Source: Podospora anserina
Taxonomy: Eukaryota
Direction: 5' to 3'
DNA: 64,000 bases
Assembly (NCBI GenBank): GCA_017654855.1
Contig: CM030333.1
Coordinates: 1,488,001 to 1,552,000 of the forward strand
The stretch's first letter is position 1. The number at the start of each line of letters is the position of its first letter. Below, piece after piece: positions 52,158 through 58,302 of this stretch. The notes under the pieces are model-generated. The model had not been told where the DNA came from. It did no database searches and saw only the letters and a program-made list of their open reading frames with translations. The position numbers and the translations under genes were made by a program.

Positions 52158-54199
52158 AGAGGGAAAGGAAAAACAGGGGGGGGAAGGGAGAGAGAGGTTA
52201 AATGGCTGGGTTTGGGGGGTCAGGGTGGTATTAAGTTTCGGCCGGTTCGTTGTTTATAAGCGCGAAGGACGCGGACGGGTGGACGGACGGCCCTTTCGGC
52301 AATGGGGAAAGGTGTTGTGGGGGGTGGAGAGTCCGGCAATGGGGTTCGGAGGTCCTGTCCACCTCACCTAACCCATTCCGCCGCCAACGGGGGGACCCAC
52401 TGCTGACTTGTGTCGGAGCGCATCATGATGTCAAGTCATGGTGTTGGGATGGATTTCTTTGATGTCCTTCTTCGTTTCTCTATCATTGAGAGTTTTGAAG
52501 AGGGATTATCTACCGCCGACGACCCATGCGGGGTCAACAAAGACCCTGCCACCACCACCCCCTCCGTTCTTTGACAATTGAGCCTGATGAAGGAGGAGGG
52601 CCGGGTATTTTTTTTTCACGAAAAAGCCCGATTTGCATTTTGCATTTCCATGTGCATTTTATTTCTTCTTCTTCTTCTTCTTCTTCGTCAGCGGCAGACT
52701 AGGCGGCAGGCAGGCGTTTGGGTGGTTATTTAATCTTGTCTGGGTGGCAGCAAAAATTGTTCCTTTTTCTTTTGTATTTTTTTTTCATTTTCTCTTGTTG
52801 ATATTTTGTCGCGCGATGTGTTTTTGTATGAGATGAATGAAAAATATCCTGGCTTTTTTTGCTTGTTGCTGTGTGCTACGTTTGAGAGAAAAAAAAAGGG
52901 GGGAAAGACACTGAAAGTTAGATGGATGGATGGATGGATGGATGAAGGGCTGGCTAGACTTTTTGGTTCTGGGAGTTGGGATTTATACAGTAGGTGTATT
53001 GTAGATATCGATACAACAACGAGACAGACAGACTAGACTAGAGAGACTAGATGGGGGTTGGGGGGTAGATGTGGTAGATTAGAGAGAGGGAAGATAGAAT
53101 TGATGATGGTTTTTTGAGATGTTGTACAGGTAGCTAGTTGGTTGATGGGTAGTAGAGTAGGTGGCTAGTGGTGTTATGCAGGATGAAATGCAAAAACAGA
53201 TCGGTCATGTACCCCAGGGGAATATCACATGCTGCTGCTGTCGTGGCGGTCTGATTGAGGTTGAGAGAGGGTTGAGACATTCTGGGCCGGGACGCTGCCG
53301 GGGTCGCTTCCGGGGTGTCGGGGACTGACCGGGGGGGGTCAGACAAGACAAAACATGTGCCGTGTGGGTGGGGGGGCTCGGAGGGTTGAAGAGACGGCAT
53401 TCCGATATCAGCAATGTTGATTATTGTGGTATTTTGTTGTTATGGATCGAGAATACGACAGTTGTGATTATTGGGGTGTTTTGGAGGCCGATCCAGATGT
53501 TTGTTTAACACACCTCATCCTTCTGGAAGTAGATGGGGGTGGGGGTCAGAGCCCAGAGCTGCGTCCCCGGTCACCGCCATCCGTAACCCCCGGAAGCTTG
53601 GGCGGCCCCGGCATTGGTGAGTTGTCGTCGGTTGGGAGGTTGGTGGGTTGACTATCATCTGCGGGAGCGGCACACCGGGGGTCACTCTGTTGGTGAGTGA
53701 ATGAATTTGGATGATGAGATCAGATCAATGGTTTGTTCTGGATTGGGCGTTGGTCTGATGATGCACACTTGGAGGGTTCACGAAGCCGCCACACACCACT
53801 TTGGTCGTGGTTTCTACAAATGAAATGTTGCCATTCCCGCCATGGGGGCGAAAGGAGGTGTGGCGCTGGGGGTGAGCAAGCCCCGGTCGGCCAGTGAGGT
53901 TGTCCAGGGTGAGCCTCATCCTCACCGCTGCTGGTATGAATCCCTAAATGGTGTTAGTATAGCTGTGTCTTTGTTGGTATAAGGGGAGGGGGAGAAGGGG
54001 GTGATGTACATCTGGGCCGGGCCGCAATCTTTTTGTTGCTCTTCTTTGATCGATTTTTGAGAGTGGTGTTGTTCTCGTTGGTTGATTTTTCCGAACAAGT
54101 GCGAGAGAGGTGTATCACTGATCGTATATCAACGTCACCATACATTTTACATCCATCCCAACTTAACCTTGTTATCAACAGCATTTATCTCAAATCAAA

Positions 54200-55180
54200 A
54201 TGGCAACCACCACCACCACCACCACTACCACCATCACCGCCGCCACCGTTACAACAGCAACAATGCCACTCCTCCTAAGCATCACCACCACCCCACCACC
54301 ACCACCACCACCAAAACCAAAAATTTCCCTCCTGTCACTACCACTGGAGCTCAGACTAGAAATCTACACCCACCTCCTCCACCTACCACTCCCCCCACAC
54401 TCAGGCGAGGAATCACCCCCTTATCGATCAACAACCCCCCCTCTGTCAACCTTTGCCGAAAAACCAAAAATCTGGACAGCGATTTTATACGTCTCCCGAC
54501 AAATCTACATCGAGAGTCACCCCCTCTTGTACAAGTCAAACACCTTCTCCGCCCACCCCACCCTCCTCACCAGCTCCCCTACTTTGTATCCTTCCTCCAA
54601 GGCATATAAAACCCCCCTTGCGACCCCCCTCCCACCACCACCACCACCACCACCATCAACAACAACAACAACAACAGCAACAGCAACAACAGCAACAACA
54701 GCAACAACAGCAACAACAACAACAGCAACACCCCAACAAGACCGACCATTCACCCCCCCATCCCAATCCCAGAACATCATCACAATCCCTTTATCCCCCT
54801 TCATCTCCGCCCCGACAAACCCCCCCTCTATATCACCTGCCTACATCCCCCTGATAAGGAAATGGAGGCTTCGGATAAAACTGGACAGTCCAGCTCCGTG
54901 GTCTGAGGATCTGGTGAGGGAGGTGTTCACGGGAGTGGGGGAGTTGACGTTGGATGTGTGGCAGAGTTCTTTTTGGGGTGGGGTGGGTGTTAGAACACTA
55001 AAAGGGTTTGAAGGGGTGAGGGGGGTGGGGAGGGTGAGGGTTAGGGGGATGTTGGGTGGGTTTGAGGGCTACCGGGGGTGGCTGGAGGGGATCATGGGGG
55101 AGGGGGTTGGGGTTCGGGAGGGGGAGGTATATGAAGGGAGGGATGAGGAGGAGGGGAGGAGGTTGAGGGGGTGGAGTTGA
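54200..55180 (+). CDS. Hypothetical fungal protein with F-box-like motif and T/P tracts
   Basis: LLSLPLELRLEIYTHLL and ILYVSRQIYIESHPLLYKSNTF motifs; ATG in AAAATGG context. Confidence 0.75.
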   Translation: MATTTTTTTTTITAATVTTATMPLLLSITTTPPPPPPPKPKISLLSLPLELRLEIYTHLLHLPLPPHSGEESPPYRSTTPPLSTFAEKPKIWTAILYVSRQIYIESHPLLYKSNTFSAHPTLLTSSPTLYPSSKAYKTPLATPLPPPPPPPPSTTTTTTATATTATTATTATTTTATPQQDRPFTPPSQSQNIITIPLSPFISAPTNPPSISPAYIPLIRKWRLRIKLDSPAPWSEDLVREVFTGVGELTLDVWQSSFWGGVGVRTLKGFEGVRGVGRVRVRGMLGGFEGYRGWLEGIMGEGVGVREGEVYEGRDEEEGRRLRGWS

Positions 55181-55376
55181 CTTGTCAAAGGGGGATGGCT
55201 TTGAGGGGAGGGGACAGCGTTGAGGGCCTCATCGGACATGGCAACGGTTGACTTTGATGGCGCCTTCACCGAGCCACGGCAAAGTGCGGGCGTCACTAGG
55301 TCATTGTGGAAAGGCGGGATTAACTTTAACTTCAAGTACACGTATTCAGCTTTTTTGGAATCTACCATCTTTTTAA

Positions 55377-56439
55377 TTCTTCCAACCTCTCTCCAACATC
55401 GGCGAAAGGTTTGATCGGCTCCAAGAGCTGCGGGCCCGGGACGAGCTGCCTGATGAGGTGTATCTCGAGGGCCGGGACAACGTCCACGAGGAGAACCGGC
55501 GGTTGAACGAAATCAAAAGAGGGATCAAACAATCCTGGAAGGAGATGCTCTGGATCAGGGAGGATATGGAAAGGGAGATTGGGCACCTGGAAGGACTACG
55601 ACTGCCGCAATGGACACCCGAGGTGCCGGCGGACTCGAGTGATGGGACGACGAATGCTGCCCCTCCCACATTTTGCACACCGGAGTGTCTCCTGGGGCTG
55701 GAGCCAGGCAGCAAGCCGGATTTGGATGTGAACTGCCCCAATGTCGGCAGCCATCAAAGAGGACTGAGCGGGAAGCATCGGGTTCTCAGGGTACAGTTGG
55801 GTCAGCTTGTCAGGGACCAGCTGCGGCGAGAGCAGAACAATGACAAGAACTTGTGGTTTTGCGGGGACGGCCTGCCGGGACAGCCAGGAAAAAGCAGGCT
55901 GGGCTGGCTTACGCTTCAACCGCATGGCTACACTTTTATGGTGAAGGGGTACAGCTACTGGTGGAAACGGCAGGCGAACCGCGAGATGGGTATGCACCAG
56001 GATTGATGGTTTCCACAACTGGAATGATAAACTGGAGAGGATGGTGCCGTTGTGCTTTGGTATGTTTGACTTGCCGGCTCCGTATCAGCTCGACACCAAA
56101 ACAGACGACGCAAACTGGCTGCTGGGGGATAATATCGGGTACATCTTATTGTTCTCTTCTGGAGCGGTTGCTGGACCAAAGACATGCTCTCCAAGCTTGG
56201 AGCTCAACGAGGACATGGCAAACAAACGATTAGAAACGTCCATCATGGGGCAGTATTGGATCCGATTCCCCAAGGGCCAGGAGGGATTGCCTGCTGTGTG
56301 GAAGAAGGGGCGGCTGATGTCGATTGGCCTCGACGAGGGAGAGGTGGCTGAATGGAGGAAGCATCTGGGGGAAAAGTTGGAAGGATCAAAACGATCGTCA
56401 AGAAAAAGGTCAGTGGAGGTACACGGCGAGGTTGGCTGA
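55377..56439 (+). pseudogene. Spok (spore killer)-family relic: Cys cluster plus degenerate kinase-like domain, frameshift near 56000
   Basis: FCTPECLLGL..DLDVNCPNVGSH, LVRDQL and LTLQPHGYTFMVKG in one frame; VPLCFGMFDLPAPY..YILLFS in the +1 frame; no ATG at the start of the open frame. Confidence 0.7.
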
Positions 56440-56643
56440 ATGTCAACACAGGAAACACAACTACCCTAACCCTTAAAGTTGTGCACGTGCATGTACACGT
56501 GCAGGTGCACAGGTGCAGCACAACACACGGCACGCTGTCTGACGCAATGACCCACTCTTTGTGCCTGTCCATCGAGGTTCTCTTTCATTTCCATTGAACA
56601 TCGCGGTTGCATCGGCATCGGGTGCCAGTGTCCTCCCGTCACC

Positions 56644-57486
56644 ATGTCTCTCCTCGAGTTCCTCTCGTCCGTCTTTGGCTGGATCTACTTCATCTGCTGG
56701 TCCCTCTCGTTCTACCCGCAGTCCATGCTCAACTTCAGCCGAAAATCCACCTCTGGTACCACGGTCGACTTCCCCCTGATCAACTGCCTGGGCTTCCTGT
56801 CTTATGCAATCTCCAACTACGCCTTCTACTACAGCCCCCTCATCCGCGCCCAGTACGCCTCCCGCTACCACGGTCTGACCCCCACCGTCCAGTTCAACGA
56901 CATCACCTTCGCCCTCCACGGCCTGCTGCTCAGCATCATCACCACTTCCCAGTACCTCTCCCCCCGCCTCTGGTCCTTCACCCCCTCCAAAGGCAACAAA
57001 CCCTCCCGCTTCATCCTCGGTATCATCCTCGGCTGCATCGTCGGCGTCATCTTTGTCATCTTTATCGTGCTGTCCTCCCCGGAGAGGAGCGACCCATCTG
57101 GAGGCGGCCATGGCTGGGTGTGGCTTGACGCGATCTACGCCATCAGCTATGTGAAGCTCATTGTGACACTCATAAAATACACGCCGCAGGTGCTGGTGAA
57201 TTATCGGAATAAGAGCACAAAGGGATGGAGTATTGTGCAGATCTTGTTGGATTTTACGGGGGGTGTGTTGAGTATTGGACAGCAGGGGATTGATAGCTGG
57301 TTGCAGGGGGATTGGAGCGGGATTACGGGGAACCCGGTCAAGTTTGCGCTGGGGAATGTGAGTATGATGTATGATGCCGTTTTTATCACGCAGCATTATG
57401 TGTTATACAAGGGGGCGGACGGGAAGGATGGGGAGGGGGAGGGGCTGTTAGGGGAGGGGAGGGACGAGGAGAGGAGGATCGAGTAG
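56644..57486 (+). CDS. Cystinosin/ERS1 PQ-loop vacuolar cystine transporter
   Basis: GWIYFICWSLSFYPQ, VQFNDITFALHG, KYTPQV..NYRNKSTKGWSI, NPVKFALG. Confidence 0.93.
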   Translation: MSLLEFLSSVFGWIYFICWSLSFYPQSMLNFSRKSTSGTTVDFPLINCLGFLSYAISNYAFYYSPLIRAQYASRYHGLTPTVQFNDITFALHGLLLSIITTSQYLSPRLWSFTPSKGNKPSRFILGIILGCIVGVIFVIFIVLSSPERSDPSGGGHGWVWLDAIYAISYVKLIVTLIKYTPQVLVNYRNKSTKGWSIVQILLDFTGGVLSIGQQGIDSWLQGDWSGITGNPVKFALGNVSMMYDAVFITQHYVLYKGADGKDGEGEGLLGEGRDEERRIE

Positions 57487-58302
57487 GGCTGTGGTAGAAA
57501 GATGCTGCCTCGAGGCGGCTGGGATATACCTTATGGCGGCTGAGATGCCCTGGGCTGGTCCTTTGGGGCAGATGGAGGTTCGGGTGGTGCCGTTCAGAGA
57601 CATGGTAGACCTAGACGGTCTGGAGTTTGGGTAAACAGTGGGAACGGGTCTTTCAGGATGCTAGATGGGGGAGAGAGGGAGGAAGAGGCAATGGGGGAGA
57701 GAAGACACGATAAGATACCCATGATCTGTCAAAGCGAATACATAATTGCTCCGTTTGGCTTATTCACCACATAGGACATCTATCCAGCAGACTGGAGTGA
57801 CGCCCCACACAACAACCCTGTTTGGGGATGTGGTGGGTTATGAGAATTTAAGCATGAAAGAAGGTGAGGGCCAATATGGACAGGGTACTGGAGTTGTTGG
57901 AAGGTGGGTGGGTGTGGAGGGTGGTATGTATGTATACCGTGGTTGCTCCCTCTAGGCTGGCTAGCCTAGGGAGTGTTGACGCGTGCTGGTCGTTCACAGC
58001 TCGTCAGTCCAGCCCATGATCGAGGCCGCAGAGACTCTTAGTCTTCTTTGCTGTCACATTCTCGCCATGCTAAGGGTTCTCATGAACAGACCTGTCTCTC
58101 TACAGCGGCCAACAGCTCTCATCAGGGATATTTCAACTACAGTATGATGACAGAAAAGCGAAACTCTTTATGATCATCCCCCTTTAAATCAAGAGCTCGC
58201 ACTCAGGTGATTAAATACTGTCATACTGTAAACACTCCAAGACAATGTATCCGTTCCGAATTATTGCATCCTATCCCCCCCCACTCAACTCCCCTCTATC
58301 CC

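What the first reader, a model, noticed from the sequence alone, without database searches (positions are those of the whole stretch)
55377..56439. Hidden Spok (meiotic-drive spore killer) family relic between an F-box-like gene and cystinosin
Seen: two adjacent ORFs in different frames join into CTPECLLGL-x5-PDLDVNCPNVGSH (C-x3-C-x15-C-x5-H), KHRV..LVRDQL, WLTLQPHGYTFMVKG, RE, VPLCFGMFDLPAPY, YILLFS and a basic tail KRSSRKR. Knowledge (from memory): Podospora SPOK proteins carry the same ordered motifs (CTQACLLGL..DLDENCPNV..H, L.PYGYTFVGKG, HE..VY, VPV.LG). The frame breaks near 55995-56005, outside any homopolymer run; the nearby GTATGC has no adjacent acceptor that restores the frame; the 5' open frame has no ATG at its start. 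Inference: a diverged, decaying paralogue of a toxin-antidote drive gene in a housekeeping neighbourhood, with no flanking transposon recognised.
Basis: partly seen in the sequence, partly recalled or inferred. Interest (0 to 1): 0.8.

Follow-up and report, generated by a model that had tools for sequence, protein, structure and literature searches.

The report
Decayed nuclease-less Spok pseudokinase gene
This is the broken remnant of a fungal gene that descends from the antidote half of a spore-killing selfish gene, had already lost its poison part and its enzyme activity, is still whole in two related fungi, and decayed only recently in Podospora.

Summary
Two frames (55377-56006, 55945-56439) match the Cys-cluster and kinase-like half of Spok proteins (profile E 2e-26). 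The frameshift near 55997 is real: independent runs carry it. The 'decayed toxin-antidote driver' reading is only partly right. Intact 463- and 455-aa orthologues exist in Cercophora samala (57% identical) and Triangularia verruculosa, the latter next to cystinosin as here. All three lack the killing nuclease and the catalytic-loop His and Asn, but keep the 3-Cys/2-His cluster, the ATP-site Lys and the aC Glu. The ancestor at this locus was therefore a single-copy, vertically inherited Spok-derived pseudokinase, not a driver. In this Podospora genome it lost its first ~72 codons and its frame. Zero stops in 335 codons, a faster relative rate and different frameshifts in two sister copies date the decay to about the species-complex radiation. 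One contig from a run guessed to be RNA shows a spliced antisense transcript over it. The ancestral role is untested; a decoy or suppressor of Spok is the bold reading (~15%). Six literature searches found no report of this locus.

The parts
54200..55180 (+). Upstream neighbour, DUF7730-containing gene (F-box-like motif by eye only)
   Evidence: ORF; Pfam PF24864 E 2.4e-6
55181..55403 (.). Spacer where the first ~72 residues of the intact orthologues would lie; no recognisable homology, no matching start codon
   Evidence: tblastn of P0002 starts at residue 73 = 55404; a profile of orthologue residues 1-80 has no window hit better than E 2
55404..55673 (+). Frame 1, helical/coiled-coil segment and linker, homologous to orthologue residues 73-163; first in-frame ATG at 55545
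   Evidence: helices 32-82 and 90-147 in the orthologue model
55674..55778 (+). Spok-type Cys/His cluster C-x3-C-x15-C-x5-H-x7-H (x13 in both orthologues and in the published consensus)
   Evidence: consensus in PMC6660238 section 17
55779..55994 (+). Kinase-like N-lobe: GYTFMVKG with the conserved Lys (55944-55946) and the aC-type Glu (55983-55985)
   Evidence: K in 98 of 98, E in 97 of 98 family rows
55995..55999 (+). Frameshift: the frame is two bases shorter than in the C. samala orthologue and in one sister copy; frame 1 stops at 56004-56006
   Evidence: same sequence in runs X13 and X15 and on 15 Logan contigs as P0004
55999..56439 (+). Frame 2, kinase-like C-lobe (VPLCFG, YILLFS) with degenerate catalytic loop and DFx motif (56272-56334), basic tail (56389-56409), stop 56437-56439; about 50 residues shorter than the C. 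samala orthologue
   Evidence: tail profile has no hit here
56070..56142 (-). 73-nt spliceosomal intron of an antisense transcript (GTACCC ... GCTGAT ... AAG on the minus strand)
   Evidence: joint in one contig of run X19, depth 3.7; splice signals
56482..56517 (.). Four clustered E-boxes (two CACGTG) in the ~200-bp gap between antisense and cystinosin contig ends; putative shared promoter
   Evidence: function not tested
56644..57486 (+). Downstream neighbour, cystinosin (orthologue of PODANS_2_3300); synteny anchor

Best explanation
The stretch is a recent pseudogene of a single-copy, vertically inherited gene of the Podosporaceae that was itself derived from a Spok-family gene. Step 1 (shown by homology): an ancestral Spok-like gene gave rise to a ~460-aa protein with a long helical N-terminus, the Cys/His cluster and a kinase fold, without the PD-(D/E)XK nuclease. 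Step 2 (shown by alignment): it lost catalytic-loop residues but kept the metal-binding cluster and the ATP-site Lys/Glu pair, so it is a pseudokinase. Step 3 (inferred): it could neither kill nor phosphorylate, so it most likely worked by binding other proteins through the coiled coil and the Zn-pseudokinase module, probably in the nucleus given the basic tail. Its frame stayed open in C. samala and T. verruculosa although they differ at 42% of residues, which implies selection. Step 4 (shown or inferred as marked): in the Podospora anserina complex it lost its 5' end (shown here), constraint lapsed (inferred), and lineages picked up separate frameshifts (inferred from predicted proteins). 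Today the locus most likely makes no functional protein in this genome. It is crossed by a weak spliced antisense RNA, probably from the cystinosin promoter.
For: Intact orthologues: P0002 = KAK0670798.1 C. samala, 463 aa, 57% identical over 240 columns; P0006 = KAK4203305.1 T. verruculosa, 455 aa. Motifs (98 family rows; 101 of 134 sequences kept after requiring the Cys cluster plus 200 residues): three Cys 98/98, His 97 and 95/98, Lys 98/98 and Glu 97/98 are kept in all three. Catalytic His (78/98) and Asn (98/98) are lost in all three. Catalytic Asp (94/98) and DFx Asp (95/98) are lost in the window and C. samala but align to Asp in T. verruculosa. Nuclease profile: no hit in any of the three. 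Fold: AlphaFold model of P0002, mean pLDDT 73.7; 13 Foldseek matches at E<=0.001, and all 43 listed rows are kinases or pseudokinases. Break is genomic: X13 contig 55205-57600 at depth 72 with 0 gaps; X15 contig 55961-57600 with 0 gaps. Recent relaxation: 33 relic-only against 13 C. samala-only changes in 233 columns (chi2 8.7). 0 stops in 335 codons has probability 0.25 at 3% neutral divergence, 0.024 at 8% and 0.001 at 15%; C. samala is ~86% and complex members >98% identical in genes (PMC10936905 passage). Sister copies: P0003 differs at 9 of 148 residues, against 1-9 of ~280 for cystinosin of four named complex entries, and its tail fits a 10-nt deletion. P0005 is shifted earlier, and its tail fits only a frame two bases longer at the window's break.
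Against: The gene evolves fast even between intact copies (57.5% identity over 233 columns, against 89% for T. verruculosa vs window cystinosin), which also fits weak constraint. Synteny is shown by accession adjacency for T. verruculosa only; no Cercophora samala cystinosin was among the 54 hits listed. P0003 and P0005 each rest on one unnamed contig, so their frameshifts could be sequencing errors; if so, P0005's genome could hold a nearly open frame. The catalytic-loop alignment is gappy, and T. verruculosa keeps two aspartates. Nuclease-less Spok-like proteins may be common: only 47 of 127 distant hits were >=650 aa with the cluster after residue 350, and I did not examine the other 80. 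RNA labels of the runs are guesses.
Confidence: 0.8

Rival explanations
1. One reading: the remnant of a once complete toxin-antidote Spok driver that landed here and is rotting, like SpokPsi1.
For: Clear Spok homology. Spok-like pseudogenes are common (PMC4022471 passages). A joint clade with the Podospora drivers is not rejected (p-AU 0.64).
Against: No nuclease trace in the window or in two intact orthologues. Catalytic losses are shared with intact genes. The upstream gene ends only ~220 bp before homology starts. Single copy, no repeat match. Only 36% identity over ~96 residues to the genome's own Spoks.
Confidence: 0.05
2. The gene is still functional in this species, as a 153-aa product from ATG 55545 (Cys cluster plus N-lobe), by ribosomal frameshifting, or by an unrecognised splice.
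For: No in-frame stops in 335 codons. Cys/His cluster, Lys and Glu intact. Low-depth contigs of the RNA-guessed run X15 cover 55261-55420 and 55475-55954. In-frame GT-AG pairs could link ATG 55238 to frame 1.
Against: Those candidate introns lack branch sites, and the X15 contig runs unspliced through 55261-55420. Sister copies are broken at different places, one before the Cys cluster. The relative rate is raised. The only splice seen is on the minus strand.
Confidence: 0.07
3. What matters at this locus now is the antisense RNA (a regulatory lncRNA or a new 58-72-codon ORF); the Spok similarity is a fossil underneath it. This is not exclusive of the best explanation.
For: Canonical minus-strand intron spliced in X19. 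Contigs of two studies stop at 56362 and 56365, with cystinosin contigs starting at 56582 and 56572 (a weak hint). ATG-initiated ORFs of 44-72 codons start near its 5' end.
Against: One contig at depth 3.7; X15 is unspliced across the same place. No Rfam match at E<=0.1 in 54000-58000. Short ORFs of this size arise by chance. Divergent promoter transcripts are common (general knowledge).
Confidence: 0.08

Closest known systems
Spok1-4 spore killers of Podospora (PMC4022471; PMC6660238)
   Same: Cys/His cluster, GYTFxxKG, aC Glu and VPxxxG motifs in the same order; kinase fold; basic C-terminal tail; helical N-terminus.
   Different: No domain 1 or PD-(D/E)XK nuclease; catalytic loop and DFx motif degenerate; ~460 aa rather than 730-800 aa; single copy at a conserved position, with no repeat match in the flanks.
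Published Podospora Spok relics and Spok-like genes: SpokPsi1 (chr 5), 156-bp piece (chr 4), Pa_7_3950, Pa_4_4000, Pa_1_5015
   Same: Diverged or broken Spok relatives in the same species complex.
   Different: This locus lies beside the orthologue of PODANS_2_3300 (chromosome 2 by the record's name), so it is none of them. Those three genes are reported with transposons nearby; this one has intact nuclease-less orthologues in outgroups.
Resistance-only Spok alleles (Spok2 of strain A; engineered Spok3 K240A)
   Same: Killing function absent, resistance half present.
   Different: Those are full-length point mutants with an intact catalytic Asp. Here the nuclease is absent and the catalytic Asp is lost in two of three copies; in Spok2 and Spok3 that Asp is needed for resistance.
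Antidote-only wtf suppressors of Schizosaccharomyces pombe (PMC6283613; only title and start of abstract seen)
   Same: Conceptual model: a driver-derived gene without poison, kept by the host genome.
   Different: No sequence relation. Suppressor activity is shown for wtf and is untested here.

Membership tests
Spok meiotic drivers | Cys/His cluster C-x3-C-x13-C-x5-H-x7-H | tested here: met
   All five ligands present, spacer x15 in the window and x13 in orthologues
Spok meiotic drivers | C-terminal kinase-like domain homologous to the family | tested here: met
   Profile E 2e-26 for the read-through, 6e-30 and 2e-35 for orthologues; Foldseek kinase matches for the orthologue model
Spok meiotic drivers | Catalytic Asp (Spok3 D667) in an HxD..N loop plus DFx motif, needed for resistance | tested here: not met
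   Window has K, Q, P at the H, D, N columns and G at the DFx Asp; same pattern in C. samala; T. verruculosa keeps both Asp but not His or Asn
Spok meiotic drivers | PD-(D/E)XK nuclease (killing) domain | tested here: not met
   47-sequence N-terminal profile: best window hit E 0.52 and far away; none in orthologues; held-out controls 1e-115 or better
Spok meiotic drivers | N-terminal coiled coil and domain 1 | tested here: inconclusive
   Long helices predicted in the orthologue but no sequence match to the Spok N-terminal profile
Spok meiotic drivers | One open frame of about 730-800 codons | tested here: not met
   Two frames of 209 and 164 aa; orthologues 455-463 aa
Spok meiotic drivers | Mobile, copy-variable, transposon-associated placement | tested here: not met
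   Single match in the genome; same neighbour in T. verruculosa
Spok meiotic drivers | Spore killing and self-resistance in crosses | not testable with these tools
   Needs genetics
Pseudogene | Genomic frame disruption, not an assembly error | tested here: met
   Runs X13 and X15 bridge the break with 0 gaps; P0004 on 15 contigs
Pseudogene | Relaxed constraint | tested here: met
   33 vs 13 lineage-specific changes; different lesions in two sister copies; protein-level only
Pseudogene | No functional sense product | not testable with these tools
   Only unstranded contigs were available
Antidote-only drive suppressor | Protects against a driver in trans | not testable with these tools

The most novel reading that the evidence does not exclude
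The intact gene in C. samala and T. verruculosa is a host-domesticated suppressor of Spok drive. It would be a toxin-free, catalytically dead mimic of the resistance half that binds and damps Spok-type nucleases. Its loss near the base of the P. anserina complex removed a brake, which helps explain why Spok drivers are active there with little resistance. In favour: fast evolution with a kept Zn/ATP core; recent loss; and the report that Spok3 D667A is less toxic than the truncation, so some protection survives without the catalytic Asp (PMC12693581 passage). Against: in-frame deletions of Spok1 gave neither killing nor resistance (PMC4022471 section 11); the catalytic Asp is needed for normal resistance; Spok2-4 do not even protect against each other; and loss of a useful suppressor in the lineage with active drivers is counter-intuitive.
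Probability: 0.15. Interest if true: 0.8.

Novelty: new variant of a known kind. Interest (0 to 1): 0.42.

Why it matters
As a pseudogene alone this would be ordinary: broken Spok relatives are common and published. What is not ordinary is the lineage behind it. Spok-like genes are described as patchy, mobile and transposon-linked, with no cellular role. Here a Spok derivative without toxin and without catalysis sits at a fixed address and stayed open in two genomes across about 42% protein divergence. That is a candidate case of domestication of a fungal drive gene. It also offers a natural test of an open question: how Spok resistance works, and whether the Cys-kinase module can protect by binding rather than by phosphorylation. 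The intact outgroup genes can be assayed in the established Podospora and yeast systems.

Tried and rejected
Pfam: no family for either frame at E<=1. Word-indexed search of frame 1 among longer proteins: 0 of 1347 candidates passed (weak evidence, superseded). Metagenome contigs: 74 pattern matches, 0 confirmed relatives, so no orthologue DNA. ESM Atlas for P0002: best feature score 0.77 and TM<=0.31, uninformative. Rfam: 0 matches. No RNA holder is on record among the 24 runs listed; runs X15, X17 and X19 are only guessed to be RNA, contig depths cannot rank expression, and uncovered parts prove nothing. RIP: the relic's TpA/ApT of 0.38 shows no RIP signature. Frame rescue by a plus-strand intron: no candidate with a branch site. 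Missing N-terminus elsewhere in the genome: the P0002 search gave 7 matches, none before residue 73. First motif count and tree included four mis-cut rows and were redone. The quick tree grouped the trio with 14 other rows (98); the careful tree gave no starred set beyond the trio, and the AU test against the quick tree did not reject union with the Podospora drivers, so origin within the family is left open. Complex prediction (orthologue Cys-kinase with Spok nuclease region) was not available; nothing was folded. Earlier scan notes: none by words or sequence; three Enterprise-related notes elsewhere in the genome. Literature: six full-text searches, one on neighbouring locus tags with 0 papers, found no report of this locus or of a nuclease-less Spok orthologue lineage. 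The library lacks most subscription papers, and I read no supplements or figures; the Spok-like gene lists and trees there (PMC4022471 Fig. 6, PMC6660238 Fig. 7) could include these proteins.

Full report
Observation. The window is G000:C3:1488001-1552000 of a 36-Mb, 9-contig genome. Its cystinosin differs at only 1-9 of about 280 residues from four named entries of the Podospora anserina species complex, which places the organism in that complex. Frame 1 finds four other places in the genome: two full Spok-type ORFs of 800 and 775 aa, a 792-aa Spok-like ORF and a broken Spok-like gene. It finds 131 proteins at E<=0.001 among 1.84 billion cluster representatives. A profile of 94 other Cys-kinase regions gives E 2e-26 for the read-through with X at the break; frame 2 alone scores E 0.4. 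The five-ligand Cys/His pattern occurs once in the window and in 0 of 1000 shuffles. Spok homology is established.

The break is real. Run X13, not flagged as a possible source of this DNA, has one contig over 55205-57600 at depth 72 with no gap. A contig of run X15, from another study, spans 55961-57600 with no gap (4 of the 24 listed runs were laid). The truncated frame-1 product is on 15 Logan contigs (P0004). No plus-strand intron with a canonical branch site restores the frame, and all 16 GTA/GTG-donor candidates listed would remove at least 13 codons that the orthologue keeps.

Searching with the read-through found an intact 463-aa protein of Cercophora samala, 57% identical over 240 columns and collinear across the break. 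[quoted passage not shown] The HMMER scan added an intact 455-aa protein of Triangularia verruculosa, KAK4203305.1. This rests on accession adjacency; I saw no DNA, and synteny in C. samala is not shown. The two intact proteins share a homologous N-terminus. The window lacks their first ~72 residues and about 50 residues of the C. samala tail. The three proteins form one clade (100/100), with the window copy sister to C. samala (99/87), as the species relations predict.

Anatomy of the ancestral gene. Vogan et al. (PMC6660238, sections 17 and 18 read) define Spok as coiled coil, domain 1, PD-(D/E)XK nuclease (killing), Cys cluster and kinase (resistance, needing D667 and the cysteines). A profile of 47 full-length N-terminal halves scores three held-out own-genome ORFs at 1e-115 or better, and finds nothing at E<=1 in the two orthologues or near this locus. 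Of 98 family rows, the three Cys, two His, the Lys of VxKG and the aC-type Glu are nearly invariant, and all are kept in the trio. The catalytic-loop His (78/98) and Asn (98/98) are lost in all three. The catalytic Asp (94/98) and the DFx Asp (95/98) are lost in the window and C. samala, and align to Asp in T. verruculosa (33 of 134 sequences were dropped for lacking the cluster pattern or 200 downstream residues). The AlphaFold model of the C. samala protein (pLDDT 73.7, pTM 0.56) has two long N-terminal helices, a kinase-like core and a C-terminal helix. Its Foldseek matches are kinases and pseudokinases (13 at E<=0.001, best 8e-5). The gene at this address was therefore a toxin-free pseudokinase before it decayed. 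Where it branches within the Spok family is unresolved: long stem, no starred neighbour in the careful tree, and union with the Podospora drivers is not rejected (p-AU 0.64 against the quick tree).

Timing of decay. With T. verruculosa as outgroup, the window copy has 33 private changes against 13 in C. samala over 233 columns (chi2 8.7). It has no stop in 335 codons, which is unlikely beyond about 8% neutral divergence (P 0.024) and expected at about 3% (P 0.25). Two unnamed Logan proteins are copies from other genomes. Contigs of matching length also carry the ORF that overlaps the cystinosin 3' end, which suggests the same locus. P0003 differs at 9 of 148 residues and ends as a 10-nt deletion would make it end. 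P0005 leaves the frame before the Cys cluster, and its tail fits only a sequence two bases longer at the window's break, with one substitution. The window lacks both of their lesions, and P0005 lacks the window's. Each rests on one contig and could be an error. Taken at face value, constraint lapsed around the radiation of the complex, whose members are >98% identical in genes, well after the split from C. samala (~86%).

Transcription. One contig of run X19 (guessed RNA, depth 3.7) skips 56070-56142, with CT..AC ends. On the minus strand this is a canonical intron with donor GTACCC, branch GCTGAT and acceptor AAG. X17 and X19 contigs stop at 56362 and 56365, and their cystinosin contigs begin at 56582 and 56572, a weak hint of divergent transcription from one promoter. 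X15 is unspliced there. Sense transcription is neither shown nor excluded.

How it works. In this genome the best reading (0.8) is no functional protein. For the intact gene, the shown facts are absence of the nuclease, loss of catalytic residues and retention of the metal and ATP-site residues. The inference is a non-catalytic binder. Binding to Spok-family proteins as a decoy or suppressor is the most specific hypothesis (0.15). For it: Spok3 D667A is less toxic in yeast than the truncation, so some protection is non-catalytic (PMC12693581, passages and section 18), and antidote-only suppressors exist for wtf (PMC6283613, title and abstract start only). Against it: Spok1 deletions gave no resistance (PMC4022471, section 11 and passages), and even Spok2-4 do not cross-protect. 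An unrelated host role is at least as likely.

Comparison and novelty. It is a Spok-family derivative but not a Spok driver: four defining features were tested and not met. It is none of the published Podospora Spok-like genes or relics, since it lies beside the PODANS_2_3300 orthologue. Six searches found no report of it. I also saw the outline and abstract of PMC9972908 and passages of bioRxiv 10.64898/2026.10.04.756499; no supplements or figures were read. Verdict: new variant of a known kind. The relic itself is ordinary; the conserved nuclease-less pseudokinase lineage that it reveals is the part worth following. Interest 0.42.

Noticed in passing
window 56070-56142 (-): Spliced antisense intron with canonical signals in one contig of run X19; the transcript probably starts near 56365 and runs away from cystinosin.
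   Followed up: partly
window 56482-56517: Four E-boxes in 35 bp, including 2 of the window's 5 CACGTG sites, upstream of the lysosomal transporter cystinosin. This recalls bHLH control of lysosomal genes (from memory, untested).
   Followed up: no
L008:4277-6716 (-) (G000:C5): A full-length Spok-like gene broken into three frames (352, 142 and 314 aa), with nuclease and kinase motifs recognisable.
   Followed up: partly
L006:4058-6460 (-), L007:4141-6468 (-), L009:3850-6228 (-): Two intact Spok-type ORFs (800 and 775 aa, 90% identical) and one distant intact Spok-like ORF (792 aa, with a serine-rich insert after the Cys cluster) in the same genome.
   Followed up: partly
window 54200-55180: Upstream gene scores as DUF7730 in Pfam; it has long poly-Thr/Ala and poly-Pro runs, and ends only ~220 bp before Spok homology begins.
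   Followed up: no
G000:C2:288199-288360: Weak match (E 0.03) to the C-terminal part of the C. samala orthologue; not examined.
   Followed up: no
P0189 (PODANS_2_3300): The public P. anserina cystinosin model is 215 aa, against a 280-aa single ORF here and in sister species; possibly a mis-annotation.
   Followed up: no
P0197 (Triangularia setosa cystinosin): This species has the cystinosin orthologue (25 of 280 differences), but no T. setosa protein appeared among the four closest relatives of the relic; loss or missing annotation is untested.
   Followed up: no
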